NCBI GenBank assembly: GCA_000004985.1
Contig: GG738897.1
Reading direction: 5' to 3' (one strand)
DNA length: 64,000 bases
DNA from: Naegleria gruberi
Taxonomy: Eukaryota
Notes under the pieces: generated by a model
Databases searched by the model: none
The model's input: only the letters and a program-made list of their open reading frames with translations
What the model was told of the DNA's origin: nothing
Part shown: positions 31,195 through 62,468 of the stretch, in pieces
Position numbering within the stretch: the stretch's first letter is position 1
Layout: each line of letters opens with the position of its first letter
Made by a program: the position numbers and the translations under genes

Positions 31195-31281
31195 TTTTGT
31201 TGTTGGCTGCAATTTTTAGATTTCTAGCCGTTACATTTAATTTCATCATCAAATAAAACAAGTAAAAAATTACCTTGATTT

Positions 31282-32356: not shown

Positions 32357-32357
32357 A

Positions 32358-35113: not shown

Positions 35114-35157
35114 TTAAATTATTTATTATTATTTATTTGTATCACTAGTCTATCAAT

Positions 35158-39235: not shown

Positions 39236-39338
39236 ATAACCCTGCAATTGGATTACTAGTATTAATTTATAAAGTAGGAACTCTTTTGATAAGCAAAGAA
39301 CAAGATTAGTTTCGTGGAACTCGAAAAAAAACCACAAA

Positions 39339-43419: not shown

Positions 43420-43515
43420 TCATCTCTAATAGATTGATTTCATAAAAACTCAAATAAAACTTCAATTTCTCAATGCTAAACGCTGCCAATTTTTAAATTA
43501 GAAATTCAAAAAAAA

Positions 43516-44682
43516 ATGGGAAGAAAAACAAAAGGATTTGATGATGACGGTTACTACAATAATAAAGAAAAAGCTGGTGGTAGTGCTGGTAAAGCATTAA
43601 AAGGAGTTTTTAATAAGAGAGGATCAAATCATAGAGGATATAAAGCCGGAGGATATGGTGGATATTACAAGGCTATGGAAATGCTCGATAATGAATCATC
43701 TATGGAAATGGAAAGAAAGAAAAAACCAATAGAAGATTCTGAAGAGGAGGAAGAAGAGGAGAAAGAAGAAAAGGAAGAAGAAAAATCTGAAGAAGAGGAA
43801 GAAGAATCCGAAGAAGAAGAGGAAGAAGAAAAATCGGAAAAGCCTAAAATTGATGATGGTGAATTCCAACCTCAAAGAGTACAAAAAACTAAAAAGCAAA
43901 TGCGTTTAGAAAGATTAGCACAAAGAAAATCAGAGAAGGAAAAGGAAAAACCCGAAGTTAAAAAAGAAGCACCTAAAAAGAAGACAAATTTCCCTATTGA
44001 TTTAGCAATGTGGGATTTCCAACAATGTGATTCAAAGAGATGTACAGGTAAAAAGTTAGAAAGAATGAGAATGTTGAGATCATTACCTGTCTCTTGTCAC
44101 TTTAGAGGAGTTGTTCTTACACCACAAGGTAAACAATCAGTTTCAGCAGCAGATAGAGAAGTTGTTAAAGAACATGGTGCATGTGTTGTGGATTGTTCAT
44201 GGAATTGTTTAGATATGGTACCATTCCATAAATTGAAATCACCAAATAATAGATTATTACCTTACCTTGTTGCTGCCAATCCTGTAAATTATGGTAGACC
44301 ATTGAAATTAAGCTGTGCTGAAGCTCTTGCTGGAACTATGTATATTTGTGGATTGAAAGAAGAAGCTAAAGCTCTTTTAGCAAAATTCAAATGGGGACAT
44401 TCATTTATTGAACTCAATTATGATTTATTAGAAGCTTATTCACAGTGTAAGAATAGTGCAGAAGTTGTCGCCGTTCAACAAGATTATATTACAAAATTAG
44501 AAAAGGAAGCTAGTTCAAAAGAAAAGAGTGATTCTTCAGGAAATATTGTTTCTGCTGATGATTTATATGGCGAATATTTTACAAAAGATGATGAAAATGA
44601 AGAAGAAGGTGTTGAAGATGATTTGGTAGAACCACTTTCTGATGAAGAAGAGGAAGATGATGACGATGAAGAAGAAGAATAA
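43516..44682 (+). CDS. TSR3: Tsr3-like 18S rRNA aminocarboxypropyltransferase (DUF367/RLI-N family) with long acidic N-terminal extension.
   Basis: The C-terminal half reads FPIDLAMWDFQQCDSKRCTGKKLERMRMLRSL.....GVVLTPQGKQSVSAADREVVKEHGACVVDCSWNCLD...LLPYLVAANPVNYGRPLKLSCAEALAGTMYICGLKEEAKALLAKFKWGHSFIELNYDLLEAYSQC. This matches the Tsr3 core (MWDF.QCD.KRC.G.KL...NPVNYG...L.C.EA.AA..YI.G....A..L...F.WG..F..LN..LL..Y..C). The N-terminal ~150 aa are poly-Glu/Lys, encoded by GAA/GAG repeats. Confidence 0.75.
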   Translation: MGRKTKGFDDDGYYNNKEKAGGSAGKALKGVFNKRGSNHRGYKAGGYGGYYKAMEMLDNESSMEMERKKKPIEDSEEEEEEEKEEKEEEKSEEEEEESEEEEEEEKSEKPKIDDGEFQPQRVQKTKKQMRLERLAQRKSEKEKEKPEVKKEAPKKKTNFPIDLAMWDFQQCDSKRCTGKKLERMRMLRSLPVSCHFRGVVLTPQGKQSVSAADREVVKEHGACVVDCSWNCLDMVPFHKLKSPNNRLLPYLVAANPVNYGRPLKLSCAEALAGTMYICGLKEEAKALLAKFKWGHSFIELNYDLLEAYSQCKNSAEVVAVQQDYITKLEKEASSKEKSDSSGNIVSADDLYGEYFTKDDENEEEGVEDDLVEPLSDEEEEDDDDEEEE

Positions 44683-44815
44683 ATTATTATAAACAAAATA
44701 AGATCCAATGAAGAAAATTATTTATCGTTGTTATCTTTGTGTTTTTCTTGTAATTTCTTGGTAATTGGTTCTATGGCTTGATGGAAAATCAAATTAAATT
44801 TTTTTCCAGTAAAAA

Positions 44816-46451
44816 ATGAACAAACGTCGAAGCACCTCTTCCGTTGGATCATCAACAGCCTCTTCTTCATCATCAATGAGTGTCGTGCAACAAAGAGGCT
44901 TTAATTTATATGATGGTTCAACTAATCACAGTACAGCTAGCAGTACAACACTTTCATCAAATTCTGTTAGTCAGAGCATGTTTCCAGGACAAACACCTCT
45001 TCTTTTTCCACCACAACAACAAAACCTTCAACAACAACAACAAGTGTTAATAACTGCTACAAAGACTGGACACTTGTGTACGGAACAAGAAGAGGAAACT
45101 AGATTGCAATATCTCTTTCAAAAATACTATAATCTTGAGAAGAGACACCGAATTGAAATGCAGTGGTATGGGCATCCAATCAGGTATGTAAATTTTGTGC
45201 GATCAAGCATGCTAAATAATTTTACCACATGATAACAGTAATAATAATAACTGTCCAGCTATGGTTGATATTTTGGTGACTAGTAGAAAGTTGAAAAACG
45301 AAGAAACCTCACCAACAGAAGTACTATTCAAAACACATTCATACGAAATTAAATTAATACCGAATGAGTATTTCTTTGAGTGGAATGGTGGAAAAAAGAG
45401 TGGATATAATGTTGAACTTAAATTATTTAAAAAAGCTGTTAGTGGAAAAAAGAAGAAAGGAGAGGAATCACAAGAAGTATATAATGAACACACTGATTGT
45501 GGTGTTCCATTGATTAGTTATACATATACAGAGGATGTGTTCACAAATTCTTGGATTTTGAACTTGATATGGCCAGATGAAAAAACTAAAACATCCTTCA
45601 GAGGAGACTTTTACTTTTCAATTTCTGTTTATAGAAAAATTGATGAAGATACATTTAGAAGACTTTTCACAAGAGTTTCAAGTAGATTTAAGATTGTATC
45701 AAAACCTGGTGTATATTTAAGTAAGAAGAGAAAAAAGTCTGAGGAAGATGAAGAAGTTTCCAATGAAGTACCAAGCTCTAAGAAACTTCAACCACCACAA
45801 AAGGTCATTCCTCCAAATTCATCATCAAGTGCCACCTCAACTTTATTACTTCCAAGCTTAGAAGCTACTCCAATGCCAACTTCCAATTCAAACCTAAATA
45901 CTATTTTCACAAATACTGTACATGATGCATCATTATTCCTTCCTCTTCCACAAACAATCAAGCAACAACCATTATCTCAATTATCTACACAAGAGAATCT
46001 CCTATCTGATAATCAATTCTTTGCAGAAATGGACTCTAATAGAAATTTGATGCAACCACCAATAACCAATGAATCTACCAAGTCTGTGGATACATCTTTA
46101 AAGATTGATAACTCCCAGCTGAAGCCATCCTTTGATAATTTATTCTTTTCACAAGCTTCTCAACCATTCCTTTCATTTTCTCTTATTGAACCAACTCCAA
46201 AACCATCATCAGAAGAAATTAATCCATTCTCACCAATAACACCTCATACACCATCAACACCAAATGGTATTTTTGGAGAACATCAACAAAATCCTCAAAA
46301 AGGTGTGTTGACACTCAATTTTTCACAAGAGGGAGCAACTGAAAATGATTGGTGGTTCTACAATACTTCTCAATTACCAGAGAAAGAAGCTCAAACCAAT
46401 GATGATTTCTATCACAAAATGTTGGAAGATACTAATAATAGGAAAGTGTAA
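44816..46451 (+). CDS. Uncharacterised Ser/Gln/Pro-rich protein, two exons.
   Basis: ORF 44816..45232 ends ...MQWYGHPIR at a GTATGT donor (~45186). A ~60-nt intron ends at cag (~45256). It joins in frame to ORF 45261..46451 (...VDILVTSRKLKNEETSPTEVLFKTHSYEIKLIPNEYFFEWNGGKKSGYNVELKLF...). It has a poly-Q tract and a long S/T/P-rich C-terminus. No domain recognised. Confidence 0.4.
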
Positions 46452-46500
46452 ATTTGAATTTATTAAATAATTATGATGACTAACAAGTGTGTTTTGAAAG

Positions 46501-47703
46501 TCAAAGGTTAAAATCCTCTACAATTATTGTGCAGGCAGGATCTAATGTAGAATCACTAACATGACTCAACGAAATTAGAGTTGCAGTATTAGTATTAACA
46601 CTGCCAGTTAACTCTTCGTCTATTGATTGTCTATTAGAGGAATCAGTAATGCAATCAAAATTGTCTAATGAATTCTTAATCATTTGACTAGTGCATTTAG
46701 ATTCTCTCCAAGTACGGTATTCTTTAGTTTGTATAAATCTGGAAAAGGAATCAAAAAGATTTGTACAAACATCTCTTTTCAAAAATTCCAAAACTGTTTT
46801 GGAAGTTTCAACATCAATCTTCTTTGAAAATCTTTCTCTTTCAACAAGTTTTCTACTTGAATGGGAAACATTCACCTCTTTATCACTTGAACTACTAAGA
46901 AATCTATCATGAATTGATTTGATATGTTTACTTCTCTTACTTGATGAAATATTTGACAAGCGTTGTTCAAGTATTTCTAATTCTTTAAATAATTCAATAT
47001 TTTCAGTACATAATTGTTGTTCACAAAACTCATAAAACAATTGCATTCCACTTGGATCTCTCAAAAGTGCAATTATTTCTTGTATATTAATTGATGGATT
47101 TAAACTATTGAAAATATCTTCGTCTTCGTTAGAGGATGAGGATAAGATTGGTGATGTTGAAACTGATGATGTTAGTGATGATTTGTTTGGTGATAATTGT
47201 AATAATCTCTTATGTTTTGGAATGGTAGTTGAACTTGGAGAAAGTGAAACTGATTTACGGTCATTAAGTATATTTTTGCTGTTTGGCATATTGACAAGTG
47301 AAAATCTTTTTTCTTGACTGTTAGATTGATCATTAGAATGTTTGTTGGAAGAATTAATGTCGTTCGGATGACGTTGTTTCTTATCCTTTGTTGGTGTGCC
47401 CAAAGACACTGTAAATCTCTTATTAGAAGAAGCAGAAGAATTCGGTGATGATGAATTATTATTGTTGGTACTAGTAATAATACTTGATGAAGTTATTGTC
47501 AAATGTGTTGGAAGATGTGAATTGGTAAGACTCTTACGATCACCACTACCTCCAACCATCATCAAACGACCAAGACTATTTCTATTAGTAGTCGTAGATT
47601 TAGATTCATCAATAGTGGATTCAAAATCATCGGCATATTCATTCGAATGTCCATACAGAACTGAATGACGTTTCAGGGAGGATTTCTGTTGATTATTTCC
47701 CAT
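46501..47703 (-). CDS. RGS-domain protein (regulator of G-protein signalling) with N-terminal myristoylation-type start (MGNNQQKS).
   Basis: From the first ATG the protein starts MGNNQQKSSLKR (Gly2, Ser6 = N-myristoylation consensus). The C-terminal region SGMQLFYEFCEQQLCTENIELFKELEIL...SIHDRFLSSSSDKEVNVSHSSRKLVERE...VLEFLKRDVCTNLFDSFSRFIQTKEY matches the RGS box (F..FL..EFSEENLEFW..VE.....). The middle is Ser/Asn/Thr low complexity. Confidence 0.65.
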   Translation of the reverse strand: MGNNQQKSSLKRHSVLYGHSNEYADDFESTIDESKSTTTNRNSLGRLMMVGGSGDRKSLTNSHLPTHLTITSSSIITSTNNNNSSSPNSSASSNKRFTVSLGTPTKDKKQRHPNDINSSNKHSNDQSNSQEKRFSLVNMPNSKNILNDRKSVSLSPSSTTIPKHKRLLQLSPNKSSLTSSVSTSPILSSSSNEDEDIFNSLNPSINIQEIIALLRDPSGMQLFYEFCEQQLCTENIELFKELEILEQRLSNISSSKRSKHIKSIHDRFLSSSSDKEVNVSHSSRKLVERERFSKKIDVETSKTVLEFLKRDVCTNLFDSFSRFIQTKEYRTWRESKCTSQMIKNSLDNFDCITDSSNRQSIDEELTGSVNTNTATLISLSHVSDSTLDPACTIIVEDFNL

Positions 47704-48130
47704 TGTATATATATTGATCAAAATTGTTTTAAAGGTATGTAGTTGATGCAGATGATTGAATCCAACTCCTAACGACTGAGATCTTGAATATCACACAACA
47801 CTTCGTTTCTTTTTTTTTCGAACGCACCATTCACCAACAGGCAATTAAATATTTGATTGATGTCCTCTTTTTTTGATGCGAAACTAAAAGGCCTTAAGGC
47901 ACTCACGGTCTGTTGGTTTTTGGTGCTGATTACTCAATCATCACCTTAATTGGCACAAATTGTTTGTCATTTCTTAGATTACCATCTTTGAAATTAAGAC
48001 ACTCTCTGAATTTGTTTCTTTTCATTATACCCTCAATAATTTTTCAATGTAGTAATTAGTTTGGCAAGATTAAACACGAATGTGAAAATGTCTTTTTCTT
48101 TTTAACTTTTTTATTCGTGAATTTGATATC

Positions 48131-49717
48131 TTACATCAGCTCATCTTTAATGATATGAACGATGGATTGAATCCACGAATTCAAAATTTGAGGAAGTGTT
48201 ATTGAGGAATGTAAATTCTGAAAAGGTATATTATCAATACTTTTTCCAATACCAAACAATGCTTTACCTCCAATTAAATTATTAAAATATCTTCGTATAT
48301 TTACAAATAAACTATTCTTTTCTGTTGCATAATTATTTTTAAATGTTATCGAACATGGAAGAATATTTAAATCCTCTACAAGTACATCAATATTTAAATT
48401 TGGGAGTGTTATAGTTCCCTTTTCTCTTGGATGTACAATAAATATTACTGTATATACTGTATCAGATTGTTTTTCTACCTTAATTAGAGGTAGATCTACA
48501 ATGTTACATGTTAGAGAGGGTAATTCATCCAATTTTACCTCATTTATCAAACTTCGTTTTATAATATCTATAGCTGCAAGTCTCTTTTTAGGATTTGGTG
48601 GTAAATTCAGTATAGTATCTCTCTTCTTAGTCGAGGGTATTAAATCAAAACAATTTAAATCTCCTACAATTGAATTTGATGAAATTAAATATGAAAATCC
48701 TAAATTTTCAGTCAATATTTCAATACCAGCTTGAAGTTCCTTTTCTGGTAATTTCAGAATATCAAAATCTTGATCAAATTGAATTTTAAATTTCTTCTTT
48801 AAACCTTCTTTCAGAGAAGAAATAAATTTCATATGACCCTCGTTAGGTTTAAAAGTAGTTTTTTTTTCAGGAGTATTAAACAAATTGAGTAAAAATTCTA
48901 AATGTTTGGCATTTTCATTTTGTTTTGTACAGTCAATAGTTAATTTTTCATATTCATTCGATCCTTTTGGAAATTTATCCAATTTTAATTTACTTTCCTC
49001 AAGCCTTTTTTGTAAGGGTGTCAAAACTTCTGCTCTAATAAAATCTGCATGTTTTTTCAATTGTTCATAAACTTTCCAATATACAGCTGTAAAATCCTCG
49101 GTGCTATTATTTTGTAAATTATTGGAAGCAATATTACTCGTTCCAATATTAGATTTAGTATTAATACAATCAAACAATTCCTTTTGAATATTTTCTAATG
49201 TATAAGATGCTGGTTTATAATTTGTAAATATCAATTTTGCTATTGAACTTAGAAATACTTCTTTTGAAGAAGCCTTTTTCCAACCATCCACAATTTTCTC
49301 TAAAAAGTCCTTATTATCTTCTTGTGTAATATTAGCAATTTTAGATGCCAATGAAAATAATTCCTTTCTCTTCTCTCTATTAATTTCATCCCTCCATGAA
49401 GGTTCCGATGGTGCCTGTTGTTGTTGTTGTTGATGTGCTGATGTTATTTGATGTTGTTGTTGTTGTTGTTGTTGTAGCAGTGGATTAATACTACCTCCTG
49501 TAAGTATTTTAACAGGTTGTTTGTTATTCTTGAGTAACGACATCGGAGCAGTCCCACCTAATGGTAAGCCAATATTTGATGTCATAATATTCGGTGGAAC
49601 ACCAGCAACTAAAGTAGAAGAAGGAACCTTCGAAGTCATTGTCTGTATCGATGATGATAAAGGCTTGTTCGAGGTTGTTAAACCACCACCACCAGCTGCC
49701 GATGAAGAGGGTTTCAT
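48131..49717 (-). CDS. Uncharacterised protein with poly-Gln tracts (about 528 aa).
   Basis: ORF from the first ATG (the listed start at 49732 is TTG). The N-terminal third is Gln/Ser/Pro-rich, including QQQQQQHQITSAHQQQQQQ. The C-terminal 350 aa are non-repetitive and look globular. No motif assigned. Confidence 0.4.
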   Translation of the reverse strand: MKPSSSAAGGGGLTTSNKPLSSSIQTMTSKVPSSTLVAGVPPNIMTSNIGLPLGGTAPMSLLKNNKQPVKILTGGSINPLLQQQQQQQHQITSAHQQQQQQAPSEPSWRDEINREKRKELFSLASKIANITQEDNKDFLEKIVDGWKKASSKEVFLSSIAKLIFTNYKPASYTLENIQKELFDCINTKSNIGTSNIASNNLQNNSTEDFTAVYWKVYEQLKKHADFIRAEVLTPLQKRLEESKLKLDKFPKGSNEYEKLTIDCTKQNENAKHLEFLLNLFNTPEKKTTFKPNEGHMKFISSLKEGLKKKFKIQFDQDFDILKLPEKELQAGIEILTENLGFSYLISSNSIVGDLNCFDLIPSTKKRDTILNLPPNPKKRLAAIDIIKRSLINEVKLDELPSLTCNIVDLPLIKVEKQSDTVYTVIFIVHPREKGTITLPNLNIDVLVEDLNILPCSITFKNNYATEKNSLFVNIRRYFNNLIGGKALFGIGKSIDNIPFQNLHSSITLPQILNSWIQSIVHIIKDELM

Positions 49718-50170
49718 TTTTTCATCGAACAAATTTCAATGATAATTATTATTACGGAAAGTTATTTTGTTTTGGCTGCAATGTATTTCACTGTGGTGGA
49801 AGTTTTTTAGAGTGTGATGAGTCATCAAGGAAGATCACGTTATGTTCTTTAAAGTATCCTCCTGTGAATGTTAACAAACTCATTCAAGTGAAGGACAATT
49901 TTGGTGGGTGCGTAGTTTGGAAATTTTGAGAGACAATTTCAAAATTGAGATTCCATGCTTGCTTTTTGATTGCATCCCTTCCCCCTGAGACAAACCAAAA
50001 GATATATGTAAATCATTGATGAAGAGAATATATGATATTCTGGATTGGAAAATTAGATTATCAGAATGATGGTGATGATAATTAAACATAATAAAAAATG
50101 TCTGGAGTGGTATGTGTTTATATTTGATGATACTGATGATGTTGATCACAAAATCTCTTAGGAAGACTAC

Positions 50171-51011
50171 ATGTTAGATATTTATGATGATGTATTAAAA
50201 TCGAATGGAAATAACAATGCGAGTGGAAATGTTGATAGCACCACCACCAGTAGTAGTAGTAGCATTAATCAACAACAATCTAATAATTTATTGTACAAAA
50301 GTAATGATCAACAGAGAAGTGGTGTAGAATATCGATCACATTCGGAAAGTGTAAATAATTATGAAGATGAGGCTGATGCCACTTCATCTATTAAAATTAG
50401 TAATTTACAATGGGTAGGTGTTTAATGATCATTCAACATTATTAATGATTAAACATTATTTAAATATATTATAGTGGACAACAGATGAATTTATGGAAAA
50501 CATTTTACGAAAATACGGAATAATTAAAAGCCTAAAATTTGAAGAAGACAAGAATAATGGAAAGAGTAGAGGAATTATAAATTGTGAATTTGAGGATAAA
50601 TATCAAGCAATGAAGGCAAAGGAAGCAATGTTAGGAATGAAAATTCGTGGAAGTTTAATTCAAATAGAATATATTCAAAAAGGAGGAGCAGTACAACCAA
50701 GGTATACAAGTTCCTCTTCATTGGGAAGATCTTCTGAGAATGATCAAGAATCATCATCATCAAGGAATGATTATTATGATTCAGATAGAGATTCCAATAG
50801 AAATTCATCTGGAGGAAGAAATGATTCTGATAATAGAAAAAAGGGAAATAACAGTAGAAATGATTCTAGAAATGATTCCAGAAATGATTATTACAGATCT
50901 TTATCTAATAATTATGATAAGAAGAGAGATCGAAATAGTAGTGGAAATGGCAATAGATCTTCCTATGAATCATCAAGAAAGTCTCCAAGAAGATACAGAG
51001 ATTATAGATAA
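50171..51011 (+). CDS. SR-like RNA-binding protein: one RRM followed by Arg/Ser/Asp/Asn-rich tail. Two exons.
   Basis: Exon 1 ends ...SSIKISNLQW at a GTAGGT donor (~50413). The intron ends at ttatag (~50478). Exon 2 is WTTDEFMENILRKYGIIKSLKFEEDKNNGKSRGIINCEFEDKYQAMKAKEAMLGMKIRGSLIQIEY (RNP2 I.ISNL, RNP1-like KSRGIINCEF). The tail is ...SRNDSRNDSRNDYYRS...RKSPRRYRDYR. Confidence 0.55.
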
Positions 51012-51033
51012 AAATTTATTGAGCTATATAGGT

Positions 51034-51765
51034 TTAATCATTTCTCTTTCTCTTACCTGCCTTGTCAACAGATTCAACATTTTTATCAAAAGATTCCTTA
51101 GCTCTTTTTGTATTGAATTTAACTTTTCTAGCTTGTTTCTTCTTATATGCATGTCCAGGATTAGGTTGAGTATTTTTCTTAACAGTTGGTTGTGGAGTTG
51201 GTGTTTTCTTATCGTTTGAAGATTGAGGAAGTGTCTTCATCTTATTCTTTAAATGTTGTTGAATAACTTGAAGAGGATTGGATTGAAAAACTGGATGATT
51301 TAAAACATTTGTAAATTGTTCAATTTCATTCTTCATTTTCTTATTCTTCTTTGCAACTTCATTCGATTCCTTTTTAGGTTTTTCTGGTTTTTTCATATCT
51401 GATGTTTCTTCATTTTGTAAAAGTTTTGACATTGGATCAAAACTGAAAATTCCTTGTTGTTTTTGTTGTTGTTTCTTATTCTTATTCATTGATTCTTTAG
51501 TTTCCGTTATTCTTTGTAATAAACCTTTTCTTTTCTCAAATTTTTCTTGTTTTTTAAGAGTTTTTCTCTTTCTTCTTGATAATCCTCTTTCAAATTCCAA
51601 ACGATCAGTTGCTGTAATATTTTCATCAATTGTTGGTTCCGATATTGTTGTTGATGTTTCATCATTAACTGTTGGTTCTTCAGCTTTTTCTACAAGTGTA
51701 GAGTGAGAAGCATCATTACTATCTTCCACAAAACGTCTTCTCTTATTAATTGGTTGTTTAATCAT
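51034..51765 (-). CDS. Lys-rich basic protein (nucleolar/ribosome-biogenesis-like composition), function unknown.
   Basis: 243-aa ORF with KR-rich stretches (RRKRKTLKKQEKFEKRKGLLQ, KKNKKMKNE, KKQARKVKFNTKRAKESFDKNVESVDKAGKRKRND). No domain assigned. Confidence 0.4.
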   Translation of the reverse strand: MIKQPINKRRRFVEDSNDASHSTLVEKAEEPTVNDETSTTISEPTIDENITATDRLEFERGLSRRKRKTLKKQEKFEKRKGLLQRITETKESMNKNKKQQQKQQGIFSFDPMSKLLQNEETSDMKKPEKPKKESNEVAKKNKKMKNEIEQFTNVLNHPVFQSNPLQVIQQHLKNKMKTLPQSSNDKKTPTPQPTVKKNTQPNPGHAYKKKQARKVKFNTKRAKESFDKNVESVDKAGKRKRND

Positions 51766-51922
51766 TTTTTTTCAACTTGTTTTTTGAATTAAATATTCAA
51801 TAATAATTTTATAATATTATATTAAATATTATAAAATTATTATTACTAATAATAGTACTGGCTAGTATAATAAAAACTAGAAGAACATGAATAGCTGCTA
51901 ATAATTATTACAATATTTACAT

Positions 51923-52242
51923 TTAGTTTAATAATTTTAAATCTTCATCATCGGGAGCGAAGAGTGATTTTTTCTTCCATTTATCTCTTCTGGTCATATT
52001 TTCTGATAATTTTAAATTATGATCATATTCCCACTTCGGAACATGAGGTATTTTGAATTTTCTTAAAATGTAATAAAATACAATTTCACCAGATCGACTG
52101 TATTAACACATTTTAAATATTATTAAATTAATTATAATAAAACAACATACAATAAAAACCATCCCCAAATTAAAGTATTAAAAATAAATTTTGGAATGTC
52201 CAAAGATGATGAGGACGAATCTCTTACCATAAGAGAAGACAT
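51923..52242 (-). CDS. Candidate unannotated small two-exon gene encoding an ~87-aa protein with one transmembrane helix.
   Basis: Not in the ORF track (exons <60 aa). The minus strand reads ATG TCT TCT CTT ATG GTA AGA GAT...; exon 1 (MSSLMVRDSSSSLDIPKFIFNTLIWGWFL) ends at a GTATGT donor. An ~85-nt AT-rich intron ends at acag. Exon 2 is FRSGEIVFYYILRKFKIPHVPKWEYDHNLKLSENMTRRDKWKKKSLFAPDDEDLKLLN, with a stop near 51923. It resembles small single-pass mitochondrial membrane subunits, but I cannot assign it. Confidence 0.25.
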
Positions 52243-52327
52243 TTTTTACAATTTGAATTTAATCAATTATTAATTTTGAATTGTAAAAATGATTAAGAGA
52301 AATTTACTTGAGGATGATATTGGAATT

Positions 52328-53982
52328 CTACAGCTGAGTTATTGTAACATTATGTGAAGGTTTAATCCAAGAAGGACTATGATCATAGGTTCCTGGACCA
52401 ATGTGTGGTGATTCAAATCTAGATATTGGAGCTGTCTGTACACGTGTATTCTTTGATAAATCAATTCCTTTTGGTTTCTTATCTGTAAATGAGGGTGGTA
52501 AATAATTCGGTCCAACAATTGCTGCTCTATCTCTTGGTAATTTCTCTGTAAATCTACTCGTTGTTGATGTGAACCCAGTTGTTCGTGTGGAAAATGATTT
52601 CTTTGACCAATTTTCATTTGCAATTGCATAAACTCCAACTGGAGGTGTTGTATCTTTCACTAATTTTCTTTCATTGTTATCAGAGCTTCTTGTTGTCCTG
52701 GATTGGAATGTACTAGATCTTGCATCTGTCTTTCTTACTTGATTTAGTTTTTCAGGTACGTTATATGAACCTGGTGGAGGTGCTTTTGCTTTTTCTATAT
52801 TTGTAAACCTAGCAGATGTTGAGCCAAATACACCAAAAGCACCTCTTGGTTTCTTTGTTAAATCATTTGTAAGATAATTACTATCATTGTAGCTTCCAGG
52901 TCCTGGAGGAGCATCTTTGGATTTGTAATTAAATCTTTCAGTTTTAGCATTGAATGGTCCATGAACTTTTGTACGATCACTACTAACATATTTCTCCTCA
53001 AAAACTCTAATATATTCACCAGGTCCAGGTGCACTTGAAAATGTACTTGAAAAATCAAAAGGCCTAGATGTTGTACTTCCAAATGGTTGGTGTTTTGTTT
53101 TGTGAGCAAGTTTTGGCTCCTTAGAATCATAAGCTCCAGGTCCTAAATTTGGTGACCTTATTTTGTCAATTGGAACAAGTGATGATCGTTGAGTCCTAGA
53201 TCCAAATATCGAACCATAACTTCTTGACATATCATTCACTTTGCTGTCATATGCTCCAGGTCCTGGATTTTTTGGAATTTTAAATATGTCTCTTGTAGTT
53301 GAACTTGTAAATATTCCTTGTGTTTTCCTTGGTGCTGTAATTTCTTCTACAAAATATTGACCTGGTCCAATTGAATCTTGATATGTTCCTTTATATCCTC
53401 CATCTGGTGGTCTTTGTCTTATTAATTCACCACGTGGACCTTCTTCATATCCATGTGATTGTGTATTAGCTGGAATTGATGGGGCAGTTGATAGTTGTTT
53501 AGTTGGAGTTGATGGATTTCTTGTTTTTGGAGGTGATTTACTAAACTTTTTTTCAAGGAAACTGTCAATATCCGATTTTACTTGATAACTTCCAGGTCCT
53601 TAATTCATCAATTCAACATTAAATTATTATTCATATTAAATAGAAGAAATATAGAAAAAAAATTGGTCATAATAAACCTACCTGGATTTTCCTCAATTGA
53701 TGTATTTAAATCAAATCTTGTTGTTGCAGATTTAAAAACAGAGGAACGATCGGTTTTTGAGGTGAAGGCTGTTGGACTTGAATAAGTACCAGGTCCAGGA
53801 GTGAGAAACTTTTCATTGGTTGATGTTGTGTACCTCTTTTCCGTTGAGAAGAATGGTGCTGAGGCATATTTAGGCTGTTTTAAGAATGGTTCATGAGAAA
53901 TGTAACTACCCGGTCCTAGTGCATCACTTGTGTTTGTTTTGGAGAGATCAAAGTCTCTTATGGATCGGCTTACCCATGCCAT
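52328..53982 (-). CDS. Sperm-tail PG-rich repeat (STPG / SHIPPO-repeat, ODF3-like) protein, two exons, about 520 aa.
   Basis: More than 10 copies of the P-G-P-G-(S/A/T/E)-Y motif at regular ~35-40-aa spacing (LGPGSYISHE, TPGPGTYSSP, NPGPGSYQV, IGPGQYFVEE, NPGPGAYDSK, LGPGAYDSKE, APGPGEYIRV, PPGPGSYNDS, PPPGSYNVPE, IGPGTYDHS). Exon 1 (ORF 53608..53982; MAWVSRSIRDFDL...EENP) ends in a GTAGGT donor at ~53683. An ~85-nt intron follows. Exon 2 runs from ~53598 to the stop at 52328; the ORF track shows only the part after an internal GTG. The intron splits one PGPG repeat (EENP|G|PGSYQ), which supports the splice. Confidence 0.7.
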
Positions 53983-54069
53983 TAGGTGTTGATGATGATG
54001 AAATTATTGTTTATTGTACTACTATCTAGATCCTAGTTGTTTATTTTTTTTAAAAAATTTTAATCGGTT

Positions 54070-54100
54070 TTTAAGGGCGCCAAATTATTTACGGCCGTTG
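54070..54100. promoter_or_regulatory. Isolated GC-rich element (GGGCGCCAAA = reverse complement TTTGGCGCC, E2F-like consensus; followed by ACGGCCG) in the otherwise ~85% AT 5' region of the STPG gene.
   Basis: Sequence ttaagggcgccaaattatttacggccgttg lies ~90-120 bp upstream of the STPG start codon at 53982 (minus strand). TTTSGCGC is the canonical E2F site. The functional assignment is inference only. Confidence 0.25.
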
Positions 54101-54331
54101 AAAGATTGTGCTGATAATTCAGATGTTTTGCTATTACTAATACCATTGATACTCAATTAATTGAGTTTGTGTGTTCGGCATCAACTCCAATCTTTCCTTA
54201 GTTTCATTTTGCATAAAGAAAGAAAAATTTAATGCCAATAATTTGGGATATTAATGAGAAATTTCTTTTATTTACACTACTTTTTTAATTTAAATTTTGT
54301 TAGTCAAATTTTATTATTTAACCGTTGTAAA

Positions 54332-55239
54332 TTAAAATACACCAGAGTAATATTCTTCATAGGCTTGCATAATTTCCTCTCTCGTATTCATAACAAATGG
54401 TCCTTGTCTTGCAACTGGTTCCTTAATAGGTTGACCTGATAAAATTAAGAATTGAACTTGATCAGATGTACTTTCAAATTCAAATTGAGTATTTTCAATT
54501 GTTTCATCGAATAAAACTGCAGATTTTTCAACAACTTGTTGATTTTCAAATATTCCATTTCCTTCAAATAAATAAATTAAACCTTGAAATCCTTTTGGAA
54601 TTGTTTCTATGAATTTTTCATTCTTCTTATTGATTTTAACATGACCTACTAATACAGGAGTTTTTAAAAGCACTGGACTATTTAAATCATGTGAAATACT
54701 TTTACCTGCCAGAACAGAATAAAGTACATTTTCCGTAATTTGCTTTTTTGGAATTTCACTTGCTCTTAAATCTTGATAATATGGATCAATTAATTTATCT
54801 TGAGATTTTAAATTAATCCAAATTTGAAACCCATGCATAGGTCCATCTCCAATTGGTGTTTCTTCATGTCTAATTCCTCTACCAGCTATTGTAATTATAT
54901 TATTGTAAATAATTGTAAAGTATTAACAAGTATTAACATACCAGTCATCCATTGAGCATCACCAGAAGATAAATAACCACTTCTTCCCAAACTATCTCTA
55001 TGCCTAGTTTGACCAGTTAATATATAAGAAAGTGTTTCAAATCCCTTATGAGGATGTTCTGGAAATCCATTTTTAGCATTTGGTATTTTAGCTTCATCCA
55101 ATAATAAGAATGGATCATGAACTGAAACTGTTGGTCCACCAATGGTTCTACACACTTTAACACCTGCACCTTCATTCACTTCCTTTCCGAGAATTGTTTT
55201 AAGAATTTTTAATTTCATAGCGTGTTGTTGTAGACTCAT
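54332..55239 (-). CDS. Pirin (bicupin) family protein, two exons.
   Basis: Exon 1 (ORF 54895..55239): ...[73 protein letters not shown] ends at a GTATGT donor. A ~49-nt intron follows (~54899-54947). Exon 2 is RGIRHEETPIGDGPMHGFQIWINLKSQDKLIDPYYQDL... (ORF 54332..54838). HPH.G.E...Y.L.G...H.D..G......GD.QWMTAG.GI.H.E and Q.W.NLP are pirin signatures. Confidence 0.8.
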
Positions 55240-55512
55240 TTTATTTGATTGTTTTATTTGCTTAATTGTTTATTGCTCAAGAGATGAAATATCAAAATAG
55301 ATGCGTTCGGACATGGGAGGTTATGTAATCTTTCATTTATTCCGAATTGAGTGGCTTATTTCTTGCATTTCATCCGAATGTGTATTGGTTTTTTTGTTAC
55401 AATGTGTTTAATAATTGTTGTTCTTCATCATTTAATTGTAAATAATAGTTTAATGTCAATCATTCATCAATCACCACTCATAAATAATAATTTAAATAGT
55501 TCAATTTAAAAA

Positions 55513-56532
55513 ATGTTTAAACTTGCATTTCCAATACGAGTTACCAAATTATACATGGTGATGATGATCATCATTTCCATCTCTATATTATTCATCATTA
55601 TATTTACACTTTACAATAAAAACATACAGAATAATCATGGAAAATCTACACAAGTAGAACATATATTACATGAATCATTATATCATCGGAATGATGGATT
55701 TCCATATATTCCTTATCAGATGGGAAATAATCAACTCATTCCACGAATAATTCATCAAACATTTAAAAGTCAAACTAGAAATGAAATGACAAGTGGCATG
55801 CAAAATGCAAGTAAAAGTTATGAATCCAATTCAAAATTTAAATATATTTATTATAATGATGATGCAGTTTTACAATTTTTAATTGATAATTATGGAGAAA
55901 ATTCTGATGAATTTCATGCATTTAATAATTTAATTCCATTTGCATATAAAATTGATTTTTGGAGATTGGCAGTTTTATATAAAATTGGAGGTTATTATTC
56001 AGATATTGATTCAATTTTATTAAAAGATTTAGATAAGTGGATTGAAAATAATGCAACAATGGTATTACCTGTTGGATATGCTTCATTTGCTTGGTTTGGA
56101 TTTGAATTTGCATTCATTGGAAGTATTCCTCATCATCCATTATTGAGAATTGCTATGGATATGATTATTTATAATGTGAAAAATAAGTATATTCCAGAAG
56201 TTCCTAGAAAATTACATGAACTTGATTTATTTCTTAAATTTGTTACAATTTCAGGACCTGTTCTTATGGGAAAAGCTTTTAATAGATATATGAATGAACC
56301 TGATGAAGCTCCTCATAATATTGTAAAGGGAAGAAGAGAAGGTTTTCAATTTCTTGGATTTTGTGATAATGGTATAAAATATTTTACAACAATTCCACAT
56401 CAGAGAGATTATAGAGAATGTAGAGGTGAAATTGTCATACAATTCAGATATGAGGAATATCGTCAAGAGAGGAGGAAATCTTATAAACCATATTGGGCAA
56501 GTTTTAAGGAAGGTAACATTTTTAAAACTTAG
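55513..56532 (+). CDS. GT32-family glycosyltransferase (Och1 / alpha-1,6-mannosyltransferase-like, DXD motif), type II membrane topology.
   Basis: N-terminal signal anchor (VMMIIISISILFIIIFTLY) then IPRIIHQTFKSQ...DDAVLQFL...FNNLIPFAYKIDFWRLAVLYKIGGYYSDIDSILLKDL. This is the GT32 sugar-binding region (IP..IHQ.W......D........D..RY..LY.YGG.Y.D.D). 339 aa. Confidence 0.7.
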   Translation: MFKLAFPIRVTKLYMVMMIIISISILFIIIFTLYNKNIQNNHGKSTQVEHILHESLYHRNDGFPYIPYQMGNNQLIPRIIHQTFKSQTRNEMTSGMQNASKSYESNSKFKYIYYNDDAVLQFLIDNYGENSDEFHAFNNLIPFAYKIDFWRLAVLYKIGGYYSDIDSILLKDLDKWIENNATMVLPVGYASFAWFGFEFAFIGSIPHHPLLRIAMDMIIYNVKNKYIPEVPRKLHELDLFLKFVTISGPVLMGKAFNRYMNEPDEAPHNIVKGRREGFQFLGFCDNGIKYFTTIPHQRDYRECRGEIVIQFRYEEYRQERRKSYKPYWASFKEGNIFKT

Positions 56533-56834
56533 AAAAAAGTTGTAATGCACTAACACAGAAACGAGATTAATGTTGTCGATTAATAAACGAGAAGAAATCA
56601 AAGATTTTAGGTAAAATCTAATTGATTGTGTCATTCAGCTATTTAAAAATGATCTATTAGATGAAGAGATGGTCATTGCATGAGGTAGAACATGAAATTG
56701 TTGTCTTGATTTTTAAATTAAGGGCTTCAAAGTTTTTTGATTTGTTCACAAGAGGTCAGATAGAAAGATCGAAACAATAGTGTTATTTATTCGAATTAAT
56801 TTAGGGTATTTATTTATTTTAGACATAGAGAAAA

Positions 56835-59800
56835 TCAAATAAAACTTTGATTTGATTTTGTTGGAGATGAAGAAGGTGAAGAATTAGTTGATAATTGTTT
56901 TAAATTTTTCAATCTTGGACTATTTGGACTTGAATTTCCATTTAAATTATTATTGGTAAAAGGTGATTCTAATGAAATATTTCCATTTATAGTATTATTA
57001 TTAACAATTGAACAAATATTTGGAATTGGTAAATTAATATTTCCACTATTTAATTTAATTAAAGAATATTGTTGTAATTTTTTAATAATATTTACATAAG
57101 AATTATTTAAATCACCATTTAAAAGTAATAAAATAATAAAAAATAAATCATCTGAATATTGAATTAAAGGTTTTTTAAATTTAAATGTTAAAAATGTTTT
57201 TAATTGATTAACATCAATATTTGTATTAATTAAATCCTTATTTGGATTAATTTCCAAAATTAGAAGTTGTAATAAAATAAATCCAATACATTTTATATCT
57301 TTTTTAAAATAATCATTTTGATTTTGATTTAAAAGTTCATTCATATTTTCATATTGAATTTGTTCAAATACTAAATTTGTATCGTGATGTTTTTTTAACA
57401 TTGAATTAATTCTTTGTTTTAAAATTCTATTTTGGTTTTGAATTTCTAAATTTGTAAAATCTTGTAAATATTCAATTCCACTTAAAATTATTTCAAAATC
57501 TTTTTCATTAAAAAGTAAAGTTTCTAAATTTAAATGATTATGTACTTGTTGCCTTTTATGGAGATATTGAATAACTTCAATTAATTGTTTTCCTATTTTG
57601 TAAATTTCAATTTCTTCAAATAATATTGTTTGATTTTGTAAAAATTGTTGAAATGTTGGATAATAGTTTGTAACATAATAATAATTATCATTAAAATAAA
57701 ATTCTTCTATTTTTGATTGTAAATATTTATGTTTAAATATATTATATTTAGAAATCTAATTAAATTAAATATAAAAATATAAAATAAATATTAAATTAAA
57801 TATTAAATTAAATTAAAATATATTATAAACATACCATATTTGTAAATTCTGATAAAGTATTAAATTTACTAATAAATGAAATTTCTAATTTTTGTAAATC
57901 ATTTACTTTATAAATAGTATATTGATTTAAATGTTTAATATTTTCAATAATTTTAAATCTTCCATTATAAATAAATTGATCATTAAATTTCTTTAAAAAA
58001 TTAAAAATTGCCTTTTTCTTTTTTCTTGAACTTTTTAATTCTGGTAATTTTAATAAAACTTTATCAAATCTATTTAAACATTCCTTTCTAGCATTACTAT
58101 CATCTAAATGATTTACAAAAACATTTAAAATATCAACAATTGTATCAATAGTTGGTCTTGTTAATGGATGTAATTGTAACATTGATATTACTAATCGAAT
58201 TATTAATTCTGGTATTCCATTATTTTTTAACTTGTTACAAATAATTGAATGAGTTTCATTTTCATCGGTTTTTATAGCTTCATGCATTAAAAATTTAGTT
58301 TCTTGATTTTTTACATTTCTAATAATTTGAATTTCCAATGTTAATAATTCATAAAATACACATCCCAATGAAAATATATCTATTATTATTATTATTATTA
58401 TTATTATTGGTATGAATTAGTATGAATTAGTATCATGATGATGATGATGATATTAAGGTGATGATAAATCCAATTAAATGTTATTAAAATATTAAATATA
58501 TTAAAATATTAAACATACCACTATTTTTATCAATTTTAAAATTACCAGTTGAACATTCAGGTGATAAAGTAATTGGTGTTCCTCTAAAACTAATTGTATT
58601 TAAATCATTTGTTGAAGTTAATAAACCAAAATCACCAATTGCAACTTCTTCCATATTTAGAGTTGAAGAATAATTAATTAAAATATTTTCATTTTTTAAA
58701 TCTCTATAAATTAAATTATTAAAATGAATTTGTTGTAAACCTAAACAAATTTGTAATAAAATATTTAACCAATTTGGAACTGTTTTTAAATTTCTTAATT
58801 TTGAATTTGTAATTAATTGTTGTAATGAAGATTTATAAAAAGGCATAACAAGACAACATGAATATTCATCATTTTTCTTTTCAATTGAATAATCTAAATA
58901 TGGTATTAGATTTGGATGTTTTAAATTTGAAACTTGTTCAATATTCCATTGTAATTCTTTTAATTTAATTGAATCTAAATTTTGTATTAATTTTTTAATA
59001 GCAACATCTCCAAATTGAATTGATTTACAATGAAATACAGTTCCTTCTCCTCCACTTGCTATTTTTTTTAAAACAACATATTTACCATTACATAATGTAT
59101 GTACTGTTATGGATTTTAACCAAATTGGTTCAATTTGAATTAAATTTAAAATTAAATATTTTAATAACATTGAAATATGATTTCCTTTAGAAAATTCAGG
59201 TAATTTACCAATTATTTGTTTACCAAATATCCACATATGTTTTAATGTATAACTAACTAATTGTATATTAAATATTTCCTTCTTTTTCTTTTTTTGATTA
59301 TTCAATTTTTTTAAATCTTGTTCAATAAAACTTTTTATAGCTTCCATACTTGTTTGAAAGGCAATTTGTTCATCTTTAGATATTTTAGAATCGGGAAATT
59401 TAACCCTATCAGATTTTACAAGTAATTTTATAGCTGCCAATATTGAACATGTTAAAATAAAGATTAAATGTGAACATGATTTTTGTGATAATAATGTATA
59501 ATATCTATTCAATTCTATATCTATATTATTACTAGTAGTAGTTGTATTATTTGTATTATTTGTATTATTTGTATTATTTGTATGAGTATTATTAGAATTA
59601 TTAGAATTATTAGATGATGAATTACCCTGATCAATAGTTGCTCTAAATGAAGTTGTAGGTAAATGTAAATTAATTTCCTCAGTGAGTGGATTATGATCAT
59701 TGGAATTGAAAAAATTATTCATACTACTTCTATTTTGATTATTTTGATTATTATTATTGAATGATTTTAAAACTCTACCAAATGTTGCAGGTGTTGGTAA

Positions 59801-62279
59801 TTGTTTTCTATCAACAAAACCAAAAGCATCAATAACTAATTTTTGTAAATCATCAAAATTATTTGGTATTTGAGTAAAGAATGGTTCATTAGAATCTTCA
59901 TCAATTGAACTTAAAATTGTATCTTCTAAATATTGAATAAAAGTTTCAATTATAATTGTAATATTTTGTTCAAATGCAATCATTAGAGTATAAATTAATT
60001 CATTCAATCTTGTTGAATTTTGAAAGAAATTTGTTATATTAATATAAACAAACATGAAATCCTTATTTGATTTTAAATTTAAATGATGATTTTGTATAAA
60101 ATCTTTCATTCTCTTTTTAATTAAAAATAAATAATCAAAATTTTGACCAAATTTATCAATTTGTAATTTTTGAAATTCAATTTGATTTTGTAAATAAGCA
60201 TCAGAAGAAGCTTTAAAATAAAATTCAAAATATTTTAAATCATATTCACCTTGTATCATATCATATAATGAAAGTGATTGAAAATAATCTAATAATTTTT
60301 TATAATTAATTGATTTTTCTGTAATTGAATGTAATGTAAAATAATTATCTAATAATTGAATTTTACTAAATTTATCCATTGGATATATTGCTGATTTTAA
60401 TACTGTTATTACTTTACCATCACATAAAAAATCAAAATGATCAATTTTATAATAATATTGATTAAAATATTTTGTAAAAAATCTACTTTTAATATTTCCA
60501 TTTATAGTAATTATTTTACCTCTATCTGCTATAAATAAATCATTTTCTAATAATTCTGTTACATAATGTGTTAATAATATTTTAATTGGTTTATAATTTG
60601 TATATTCTCCACTACAATATACACTTCCTGAATTACTTAAAAAGTAACAATTATTTTTAGAACATTCAATATCTATAATTGGTATATCTTGTTCTATAAA
60701 ATATGTTAATTTTTCAAATTCTCCATATATATCATTAGTATGATTTAATCCAAATTTACCAAATTGATTTTCACCATATACATATATATTAAATGTTGAT
60801 GTTAAAATTAAAATACTTTTATCATGACATGAAATTTTTTTAATAAAATCTTTTTGAATATTTCTATTATTATTTAAATTATTTATATTATTTAAATTAT
60901 TATTTAAATTTATATTATTTATATTATTATTTAAATTATTTATATTATTTAAATTAGAATTATTTAAATTAGAATTATTTAAAATTAATTGATTATTAAA
61001 ATTTGGAAATGGAATTGGTTTTGTACAAAAATTTTTAACATCTTTACATTTAATTCCAATTTCATCATCATTACAAATTCCACAAATAAATAAATCAAAA
61101 TCTTTTGTAATCATTAAAACATAATATTTTGTTAATGATGAAATTGAATGAATATTTGATGTAATAAGTGTTGGTGTTTTAATTACTTTTAATCTATTAT
61201 CTGTATTACTTGTTATATCTGAATAATAATTAATTCCACATCCATATAAATTACCACTTTCTATATTATTTTAAATATTATTTATTTAATAAATATATTT
61301 AATATTATATTTAGTTCTATATTATTTTAAATATATTGTAAACATACCAGTTAAAAATAAAGTACTTTCATATAAAGTTGTAATTTTCTTAATTTTTTCA
61401 CCTTTAAAATTATTAAATTGTAATCTAGTTGGTATTTGAGTGAGAGGTTTATTATGTCCTAATCCTAATTGATAATTATTATTATTACCTGCTACCCAAA
61501 TACTTTCATCCTCTTTTATTAAATATTAAATATTAAATATGATAAATATTTAAAAACATACCCATTACTATAAAAGTACAATAATTTTCAGTATAAATAT
61601 TTCTAATTCTAGAAACATCAATTGAATCTCTATATTCATTCTTTACACCTAACATTATTAAATGATTTTCATACACTTCAGAGTCTTGTTGATCATCAAA
61701 TTGTTGTTGATCATCATCACCATATAATATATAATCATCATCATCAATGGCTACTAAATATTGTCCATAATTAGTATTCTCTTTAATAATACCACTATTT
61801 AATATTAATGTACTTGATCCACTCAATTTATTTAAGTGATTAATTTTATAAAACAAATATTCTACATTAATAGTATTCTTATTGATCATATATTTACTTA
61901 GTGATGATAATGCTGATGCTGATGCTTTTATATTTTGATTAGATGATGATCCTACTCCTACTATAATATTACTACCACTATTACTACCAGGTGATGATAC
62001 AGGTGAATCTATTGGTGTAGCAATTGATGATCTAAAGCCTAGTGCATTGTTATAATTACCTGAAAGGCTTGTTGATGATGATGATGGTGATATTGAAGTA
62101 TCATTTTTATGAATACTAAAATATTCTTGATCCGAAGTAAATAATTTTAATAAATTCTGAGAACTTGTAGTACTGCCACTAGATGTTGACAGTCTATTAT
62201 TATTGTTATTGGTGAGAATGGATGGTGAAGAATTGGAGGGTGATAGAGAAGGTGAATTTAATGAATGTCTTGAAGACAT
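56835..62279 (-). CDS. Large multi-exon gene encoding an RCC1-repeat + Ser/Thr protein kinase with long Asn/Ser/Thr low-complexity inserts. At least 5-6 exons with very AT-rich introns.
   Basis: Exon ORFs on the minus strand: 61533..62279 (MSSRHSLNSPSLSP...; Ser-rich N-terminus), ~61350-61530 and 58484..61114. The last contains RCC1-like repeats (LYGCGINYY..., YVYGENQFGKFGL, SGSVYCSGEYTNY), then kinase subdomain I-VII (IASGGEGTVFHCKSIQFGDVAIKKL, HPNLIPYLDYS, IYRDLKNENILI, IGDFGLLTS). A ~115-nt intron contains (ATT)8. Then 57823..58368 (kinase subdomains IX-XI: MGCVFYELLTLE..., LHPLTRPT), and then 56835..57401 plus probably the 57402-57720 segment (Asn-rich C-terminal tail). Exact exon ends were not resolved. 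Confidence 0.55.
58381..58404. repeat. (ATT)8 microsatellite. A directly duplicated GTATGAATTA 10-mer lies immediately downstream. Both are inside an intron of the kinase gene.
   Basis: tattattattattattattattatt followed by ggtatgaattagtatgaattagtatc. This is an intronic simple-sequence repeat. Confidence 0.8.
59521..59600. repeat. Coding tandem repeat: ~5 copies of the 10-mer GTATTATTTG (imperfect). It encodes a Thr/Asn-rich (NTNNTNNT...) insert in the kinase gene (minus strand).
   Basis: gtattatttgtattatttgtattatttgtattatttgtatgagtattattagaattattagaattatt is visible directly. It is in frame within ORF 58484..61114. Confidence 0.75.
60841..61000. repeat. Imperfect 12-15-bp AT tandem repeats (aaattatttatatt / atttaaatta variants). 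They encode the poly-Asn/Leu/Ile tract NNSNLNNSNLNNINNLNNNINNINLNNNLNNINNLNNN of the kinase gene.
   Basis: Direct inspection. Repeat units vary by 1-3 nt. The region is in frame on the minus strand. Confidence 0.7.
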
Positions 62280-62468
62280 TTTTTATACTGTCTGACACTT
62301 GGCGTTTGATTGATCAACATTGTGGATAATTGATGGATAAAAACTCTTGAGCAGCAAAGAAAGAGCGGGAAGGTAGTTAACTTCCTTTTTTGAGTGTTAG
62401 CCACAATATTATGAATCAAATTTTGACAACAAAACAATTTAGTGTTGATTATAAATTTAAATGAATCA

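What the first reader, a model, noticed from the sequence alone, without database searches (positions are those of the whole stretch)
52328..53982. Sperm-tail PG-rich (STPG/SHIPPO) repeat gene implies a cilium/flagellum-bearing organism
The two minus-strand ORFs join across an 85-nt GTAGGT...AG intron into a ~520-aa protein made almost entirely of P-G-P-G-x-Y repeats (Pfam STPGR/SHIPPO-rpt type; ODF3-like). The intron falls inside one repeat and splicing reconstitutes the motif. This family is essentially confined to organisms that build axonemes. Together with the Dictyostelium-like composition of the window, it points to a flagellated amoebozoan/protist rather than a cellular slime mould. 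The ORF track splits and truncates the gene, so automated annotation would likely miss its true extent.
Basis: partly seen in the sequence, partly recalled or inferred. Interest (0 to 1): 0.5.

Follow-up and report, generated by a model that had tools for sequence, protein, structure and literature searches.

The report
Naegleria STPG2 flagellar microtubule-binding gene
This is the already annotated two-exon gene for the Naegleria gruberi orthologue of STPG2, a conserved repeat protein that lines the outside of flagellar doublet microtubules, so it is real and correctly read but ordinary.

Summary
A minus-strand gene has exon 1 at 53982..53682, an 83-nt GT..AG intron at 53681..53599, and exon 2 at 53598..52328. 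It encodes 523 aa. Pfam SHIPPO-rpt (PF07004) matches at E=3.5e-22.

The spliced product is 100% identical over its full length to the public model NAEGRDRAFT_52250 / XP_002672561.1 of Naegleria gruberi. That organism is a heterolobosean amoeboflagellate, not an amoebozoan. The gene is therefore not missed by annotation.

The intron sits at the same codon and phase in N. lovaniensis and N. fowleri. The junction residues fall in columns that are invariant or nearly so across 26 orthologues.

The protein is colinear with STPG2 from heteroloboseans to a frog, rather than with ODF3. It has 12 PGPGxY-type motifs plus one conserved QSxGY unit, spaced about 40 aa apart.

The closest solved relative is Leishmania tarentolae DMAP5/STPG2, an external doublet-microtubule MAP with 96-nm periodicity. 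Published Tetrahymena structures show that the PG motif binds tubulin once per 8 nm.

The most likely function is an extended strap along one protofilament groove of the flagellar doublet, spanning about 96 nm. The gene, family and organism are all already known, so interest is low.

The parts
53682..53982 (-). Exon 1 of NAEGRDRAFT_52250 (STPG2 orthologue). ATG at 53982. Encodes residues 1-100 plus the first base of the Gly101 codon, and carries PG motifs 1, 2 and the first half of 3.
   Evidence: The product is 100% identical to P0001.
53599..53681 (-). Intron: 83 nt, GTAGGT...TTAAG, phase 1, 18% GC.
   Evidence: The position and phase are the same in N. lovaniensis (65 nt) and N. fowleri (94 nt). 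tblastn HSPs break at this point.
52328..53598 (-). Exon 2: residues 101-523 plus the TAG stop. Carries the rest of PG motif 3, the central QSxGY segment and PG motifs 5-13.
53470..53568 (-). Approximate coding stretch for residues about 139-170 (APSIPANTQSHGYEEGPRGELIRQRPP). This is the most conserved non-PG segment of the family and the only part that AlphaFold2 predicts with some confidence.
   Evidence: Invariant columns P140 S141 P143 Q147 G150 Y151 G157. A beta-hairpin at 151-161 has block pLDDT up to 80. The segment is absent from the kinetoplastid solved chains: the alignments skip profile positions 112-160.

Best explanation
[quoted passage not shown] It encodes a 523-aa, 57.7-kDa protein that is basic (pI 9.85) and hydrophilic, and is predicted to have no globular fold. 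It consists of 13 positionally conserved units about 40 aa apart: 12 PGPGxY-type motifs and one QSxGY unit.

The likely mechanism is inferred from solved relatives. When the amoeba differentiates into a flagellate, the protein is made and laid along the outer surface of the axonemal doublet microtubules. Each PG motif docks in the groove between two protofilaments at one tubulin dimer. The roughly 40-aa spacers each bridge 8 nm, so one molecule spans about 96 nm, the axonemal repeat. There it would stabilise the lattice, or help register 96-nm-periodic complexes near the radial-spoke bases, or both.

Shown here: gene structure, splice, family membership, orthology pattern and motif spacing. 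Inferred: binding site, periodicity and role in Naegleria.
For: - Splice and CDS.
- Pfam SHIPPO-rpt, E=3.5e-22.
- Identity with the N. gruberi model.
- Intron conserved in position and phase in three Naegleria species whose proteins are only about 50% identical.
- Local synteny kept (kinase ... STPG2 - SLX9 - RRM - RGS).
- Full-length colinear alignment of 26 orthologues from Heterolobosea, stramenopiles, ciliates, a haptophyte, a green alga, Trimastix and a frog STPG2. All 13 motif columns are kept in 23-26 of the 26 sequences. BLASTP against frog STPG2 gives 1e-28 end to end.
- Mean motif spacing is 39.8 aa in N. gruberi and the median is 41 across the family.
- The family profile hits the 476-aa chain 9y6s_4F at 2e-51 and 9e5c_0r at 3e-45. 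9Y6S is the L. tarentolae 96-nm DMT model. Its chain table lists DMAP5, alias STPG2, 476 aa, under 'External MAPs' with periodicity 96 nm: PMC12637542.
- Kubo et al. [quoted passage not shown] They infer that 12-motif proteins span 96 nm.
- Tetrahymena STPG2 is reduced in RS1/RS2 mutants and is proposed to lie near the spoke base: PMC12399478.
- AlphaFold2 gives mean pLDDT 47.7 and no domain, as expected for a chain that orders only on the lattice.
- There is no hydrophobic segment (maximum KD(19) 0.15) and the pI is 9.85.
Against: - No expression, localisation or proteomic data for this Naegleria gene could be found in the tools. The Fritz-Laylin and Cande 2010 differentiation dataset is not held, and later supplements had no entry.
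- A single-sequence search of the PDB finds nothing. The link to the solved chain rests on a family profile.
- Naegleria and most orthologues have 13 units, not 12, because of a central segment that the solved kinetoplastid chains lack. The 96-nm arithmetic is therefore not exact for this protein.
- The protein that Kubo et al. call STPG2 in Tetrahymena has a different PGPxY motif and partly enters the lumen. It was not hit by the profile, so the name 'STPG2' is not used uniformly.
Confidence: 0.85

Rival explanations
1. It is an ODF3/CIMAP1-type protein: a short SHIPPO protein of the outer dense fibre or doublet surface, rather than STPG2.
For: It belongs to the same Pfam repeat family. ODF3/CIMAP1A/B chains from sea-urchin, bovine and mouse sperm doublets are weak hits of the family profile, at E=5e-8 to 1e-4.
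Against: Those chains are 251-303 aa and match only about 95-150 profile positions. The 476-aa DMAP5/STPG2 chain matches over two stretches covering most of its length at 2e-51. Frog STPG2 aligns end to end, including the non-repeat APSIP..QSxGYEE segment and the C-terminal K.SFN.T motif. [quoted passage not shown]
Confidence: 0.04
2. It is a microtubule-binding PG-repeat protein, but in Naegleria it acts mainly on non-axonemal microtubules, such as basal-body triplets, rootlet microtubules or the mitotic spindle, rather than on the flagellar doublets.
For: The PG motif binds the generic tubulin lattice (PMC10105768). Nothing tested here fixes the localisation in Naegleria.
Against: The STPG2 phylogenetic profile follows cilia (10.1101/153437). 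The closest solved relative sits on axonemal doublets with 96-nm periodicity. The 13-unit architecture is conserved across organisms that share only the axoneme.
Confidence: 0.07
3. It is an unrelated PG-rich extracellular or cell-wall protein, or the two ORFs are separate or pseudogenic and the splice is an artefact of reading.
For: None beyond the low-complexity look of the sequence and the ORF track splitting it in two.
Against: There is no signal peptide or hydrophobic segment, GRAVY is -0.92 and pI is 9.85. The intron position and phase are conserved in three species. Junction residues P100, P102, G103 and Y105 lie in invariant columns, and G101 in a nearly invariant one, in an alignment that includes transcriptome-derived orthologues. 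The product is identical to the deposited gene model.
Confidence: 0.01

Closest known systems
DMAP5 / STPG2 of Leishmania tarentolae (LtaP35.3930; PDB 9Y6S chain 4F) and the 476-aa 'Sperm-tail PG-rich repeat' chain of PDB 9E5C
   Same: It is the best solved relative of the family profile (E=2e-51 and 3e-45). It shares the order of PG motifs at about 40-aa spacing and the C-terminal K.SFN.TI motif. Both organisms belong to Discoba. It is listed as an external doublet-microtubule MAP with 96-nm periodicity (PMC12637542).
   Different: The kinetoplastid chains are 476 aa and lack the conserved central APSIP..QSxGYEEG..GEL segment (profile positions 112-160 are skipped). Pairwise similarity to the Naegleria protein is too low for phmmer.
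Vertebrate STPG2 (example: Spea bombifrons, P0108)
   Same: The alignment is end to end (BLASTP 1e-28, 27% identity). All 13 units and the central segment are present.
   Different: The sequences are only 27-29% identical, and the vertebrate protein has longer spacers in the C-terminal half. The profile found no chain named STPG2 from an animal in the PDB.
Tetrahymena STPG1A (PDB 8G2Z) and the PG-motif binding rule of Kubo et al. 2023
   Same: It has the same PGPGxY motif and ~40-aa spacer. It gives the mechanistic template of one motif per tubulin dimer in the outer wedge between protofilaments.
   Different: STPG1A has 5 motifs in 364 aa, a 48-nm repeat, and weaves into the B-tubule lumen. 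Similarity to the profile is only partial (E=6e-10).
ODF3 / CIMAP1A-B (SHIPPO1), the founding members of the family
   Same: Same Pfam repeat. They are also found on sperm doublet microtubules (PDB 8SNB, 8OTZ, 8IYJ).
   Different: They are about half the length (251-303 aa), lack the central segment, and give weak partial matches only.

Membership tests
Pfam PF07004 SHIPPO-rpt (sperm-tail PG-rich repeat) | Whole-protein score above the curated gathering threshold, with multiple repeat hits | tested here: met
   78.2 bits against a cut-off of 20, E=3.5e-22, 6 stretches.
STPG2 orthogroup | Full-length colinearity with named STPG2 proteins, including non-repeat signature segments | tested here: met
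   In the 26-sequence alignment, all 13 motif columns, the APSIP..QSxGYEE segment and the C-terminal SFN.T motif are conserved. BLASTP against frog STPG2 gives 1e-28 over residues 6-520.
STPG2 orthogroup | Closer to STPG2 than to STPG1, ODF3/CIMAP1 or other PG-rich paralogues | tested here: met
   Profile against the PDB: DMAP5/STPG2 2e-51; STPG1A 6e-10; DMAP7 8e-10; ODF3/CIMAP1 5e-8 to 1e-4. No formal reciprocal-best-hit test or tree was run.
STPG2 orthogroup | Taxonomic distribution restricted to organisms with cilia or flagella | tested here: inconclusive
   The named hits among the top 120 (Naegleria, Willaertia, Percolomonas, oomycetes, ciliates, Prymnesium, Cymbomonas, Trimastix, a frog) are all taxa I know to be flagellated or ciliated. 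The literature states that the profile follows cilia. Absence from unciliated genomes such as Dictyostelium was not tested with these tools.
External doublet-microtubule MAPs with 96-nm periodicity | About 12 tubulin-binding PG motifs spaced about 40 aa (8 nm) apart | tested here: met
   There are 12 PG-type motifs plus 1 QSxGY unit, with a mean spacing of 39.8 aa. The rule comes from PMC10105768. The extra unit makes the span 12 or 13 dimers.
External doublet-microtubule MAPs with 96-nm periodicity | Physical location on the outer surface of axonemal doublets | not testable with these tools
   This needs a flagellar proteome, tagging or cryo-EM of Naegleria axonemes.
Naegleria flagellar differentiation gene set | Transcript induced during the amoeba-to-flagellate transition | not tested
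   The relevant dataset (PMC2987438) is not held. Searches of other supplements for 52250, XP_002672561 and STPG found nothing.
ODF3 / CIMAP1 | A protein of about 250-300 aa that is colinear with ODF3 | tested here: not met
   The protein is 523 aa. ODF3 chains match only 95-150 profile positions, at E=5e-8 or weaker.

The most novel reading that the evidence does not exclude
The central segment (residues about 139-170, APSIPxxxQSxGYEEGxxGELxxQxPP) is conserved from Naegleria to vertebrates and is the best-conserved part of the protein. It is the only part with a predicted local structure, a beta-hairpin. It is absent from the only solved STPG2 chains, which are kinetoplastid. It could be a still uncharacterised element: either the point where the strap passes through or anchors in the microtubule wall, or a docking site for a 96-nm-periodic complex such as a radial-spoke base. 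That would make STPG2 a register-setting adaptor rather than a passive strap.
Probability: 0.25. Interest if true: 0.3.

Novelty: already known. Interest (0 to 1): 0.08.

Why it matters
It matters little beyond bookkeeping. The gene model, the repeat family, the link between the family and cilia, and the flagellate stage of Naegleria are all on record. The useful outcomes are these:
- An 'uncharacterized protein' (NAEGRDRAFT_52250) can be named STPG2/DMAP5-like.
- A splice junction is supported by three-species comparison.
- The eukaryote-wide STPG2 architecture has 13 units, including a conserved central segment for which no structure yet exists.

Tried and rejected
- A single-sequence PDB search found nothing. 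A family profile was needed.
- An exact-product contig look-up for the N. gruberi protein returned nothing. The orthologues' contigs were used instead.
- Literature searches for DMAP7, NAEGRDRAFT_52250 and SHIPPO+Naegleria found nothing. Supplement searches of the Naegleria microtubule-network preprint also found nothing.
- The Fritz-Laylin and Cande 2010 paper is not held, so induction during differentiation could not be checked.
- AlphaFold2 with the 26-sequence alignment gave no usable model (pLDDT 47.7). No fold search was run, because a low-confidence model gives meaningless matches.
- Thirty other ORFs in the window were scanned for a second axonemal gene. None was found, which says nothing about the genome as a whole.
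- Rejected readings: extracellular PG-rich protein, unspliced or pseudogene, and ODF3 orthologue.

Full report
**1. Observation**

On the minus strand an ATG at 53982 opens a frame that runs to ...GAA AAT CCA G at 53682. It is followed by GTAGGT. If that frame is read on, it stops 24 codons later, which gives the 124-aa ORF.

A second frame carries the rest of the protein. It is closed by a TAA immediately upstream of the AG at 53600-53599. The two parts can therefore be joined only by removing 53681..53599. That stretch is 83 nt, GT..AG, and 18% GC against 37% in the CDS.

The join gives a 1572-nt CDS and a 523-aa protein. It rebuilds P-G-P-G-S-Y at residues 100-105, with the intron in phase 1 inside the Gly101 codon.

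The repeat signal is not chance:
- Pfam SHIPPO-rpt scores 78.2 bits against a cut-off of 20, at E=3.5e-22.
- [PG]GxY occurs 10 times, against a mean of 0.24 and a maximum of 3 in 5000 shuffles.

**2. Identity of the locus**

The spliced product is 100% identical over 100% of its length to a 523-aa 'predicted protein' of Naegleria gruberi. That record is EFC39817.1 / XP_002672561.1 / UniProt D2VU16, locus NAEGRDRAFT_52250.

The window is therefore N. gruberi, in Discoba, Heterolobosea. I know it as a classic amoeboflagellate. The public gene model already uses exactly this splice.

The other ORFs of the window are ordinary eukaryotic genes. They include pirin, SLX9, RGS, an RCC1-kinase, Spo11, PRP3, TAF5-like, Tsr3, PGK and an actin-family gene.

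**3. Support for the intron**

The orthologues in N. lovaniensis (P0002, 51% identity) and N. fowleri (P0003, 50%) lie in syntenic loci. The shared order is kinase ... STPG2 - SLX9 - RRM - RGS.

Each orthologue has a single intron, of 65 and 94 nt. Both sit at the same place and phase, CCAG|GT...AG|GACC, in the Gly codon of the third PGPG motif.

In a 26-sequence alignment that includes transcriptome-derived orthologues, the junction residues P100, P102, G103 and Y105 are invariant and G101 is nearly so.

**4. What kind of protein**

The protein aligns end to end with homologues from Willaertia, Percolomonas, oomycetes, ciliates (Stentor, Blepharisma), Prymnesium, Cymbomonas and Trimastix. It also aligns with a frog protein named STPG2 (BLASTP 1e-28 over residues 6-520).

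Thirteen unit positions are conserved in 23-26 of the 26 sequences: twelve PGPGxY-type motifs and one QSxGY unit. The QSxGY unit lies inside the best-conserved segment, APSIPxxxQSxGYEEGxxGEL. Mean spacing is 39.8 aa in N. gruberi and the median is 41 aa across the family.

The protein is basic (pI 9.85), hydrophilic (GRAVY -0.92) and has no hydrophobic segment. AlphaFold2 predicts no domain (mean pLDDT 47.7), except a short hairpin at 151-161 in the central segment.

**5. How it most likely works**

The single sequence finds no solved relative. The family profile does:

| PDB chain | Description | E-value |
|---|---|---|
| 9y6s_4F | 476-aa 'Sperm-tail PG-rich repeat' | 2e-51 |
| 9e5c_0r | 476-aa 'Sperm-tail PG-rich repeat' | 3e-45 |
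| 8g2z | Tetrahymena STPG1A | 6e-10 |
| 9e78 / 9y6s | DMAP7 | 8e-10 |
| 8snb, 8otz, 8iyj | ODF3 / CIMAP1 chains | 5e-8 to 1e-4 |

9Y6S is the 96-nm repeat of the Leishmania tarentolae doublet microtubule (PMC12637542). Its chain table lists a 476-aa protein, DMAP5 alias STPG2, under 'External MAPs' with periodicity 96 nm.

Kubo et al. 2023 (PMC10105768) showed from the Tetrahymena doublet that PGPGxY is a microtubule-binding motif seated in the outer wedge between protofilaments. They showed that the ~40-aa spacer equals one 8-nm tubulin dimer, and inferred that 12-motif proteins should span 96 nm.

A Tetrahymena study found STPG2 reduced in RS1/RS2 mutants and placed it near the spoke base (PMC12399478). 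A comparative ciliome study reports that STPG2 has a phylogenetic profile that follows cilia (10.1101/153437).

The best-supported mechanism is therefore this. On differentiation to the flagellate, the protein is laid along one outer protofilament groove of the doublets, with one motif per dimer over about 96 nm. It acts as a stabilising or registering strap. The anatomy and homology are shown here. Localisation, periodicity and role in Naegleria are inferred.

**6. Rivals**

- ODF3-type identity is not supported. Those chains are half the length and give partial weak matches.
- An extracellular PG-rich protein, or an unspliced pseudogene, is contradicted.
- A mainly non-axonemal microtubule role cannot be excluded without localisation data. 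It is unlikely, given the family's distribution and the solved relative.

**7. Comparison, novelty and verdict**

The locus passes the tests for the SHIPPO repeat family and for the STPG2 orthogroup. No formal tree or reciprocal best-hit test was run.

It differs from the solved kinetoplastid DMAP5 in having the ancestral central segment, which those chains lack. This is the only point not yet covered by published structures, and it is the basis of the 'novel case'.

Everything else is already on record: the gene model, the family, the link with cilia and the organism's flagella. It was wrong that annotation would miss the gene. It was imprecise on two points: ODF3 rather than STPG2, and amoebozoan rather than heterolobosean.

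Interest is low.

Noticed in passing
window 54332..55239 (-): A pirin gene is split into two ORFs. The Pirin N-terminal domain is at 54895..55239 and Pirin_C is at 54332..54838. The ~56-nt gap between them is probably a short intron. In N. lovaniensis this position, between the kinase and STPG2, is occupied by an F-box-like gene instead.
   Followed up: partly
window 27328..28554 (-): There is an intact 408-aa Spo11 / topoisomerase VI-A ORF (TP6A_N plus Toprim domains). This is a meiosis-associated gene in an organism for which, to my knowledge, sex has not been observed directly.
   Followed up: no
window 48131..49732 (-): A 533-aa ORF has no Pfam hit. It has no counterpart in the syntenic N. 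lovaniensis and N. fowleri loci, where it would lie between the RRM and RGS genes.
   Followed up: partly
window 9379..10368 (-): An actin-family ORF of 329 aa matches Actin profile positions 47-407 only. The N-terminal exon must lie upstream across an intron, or the ORF start is mis-set.
   Followed up: no
window 45261..61114; L001 and L002: Gene order around STPG2 is conserved across three Naegleria species despite about 50% protein identity. The order is RCC1-kinase ... STPG2 - SLX9 - RRM (opposite strand) - RGS - next gene. N. gruberi has specific insertions: pirin plus a DXD glycosyltransferase at 54332..56532.
   Followed up: yes
window 53470..53568 (-), protein residues about 139-170: The best-conserved segment of the STPG2 family is not a PG motif (APSIPxxxQSxGYEEGxxGEL). 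It is missing from the kinetoplastid STPG2 chains, which are the only STPG2 chains with a solved structure.
   Followed up: partly
window 1..64000: None of 30 further ORFs scanned against Pfam is an obvious axonemal gene. The STPG2 gene sits among housekeeping genes (PGK, PRP3, TAF5-like, Tsr3, Hikeshi, Vma22, lipoate ligase), not in a flagellar cluster.
   Followed up: yes
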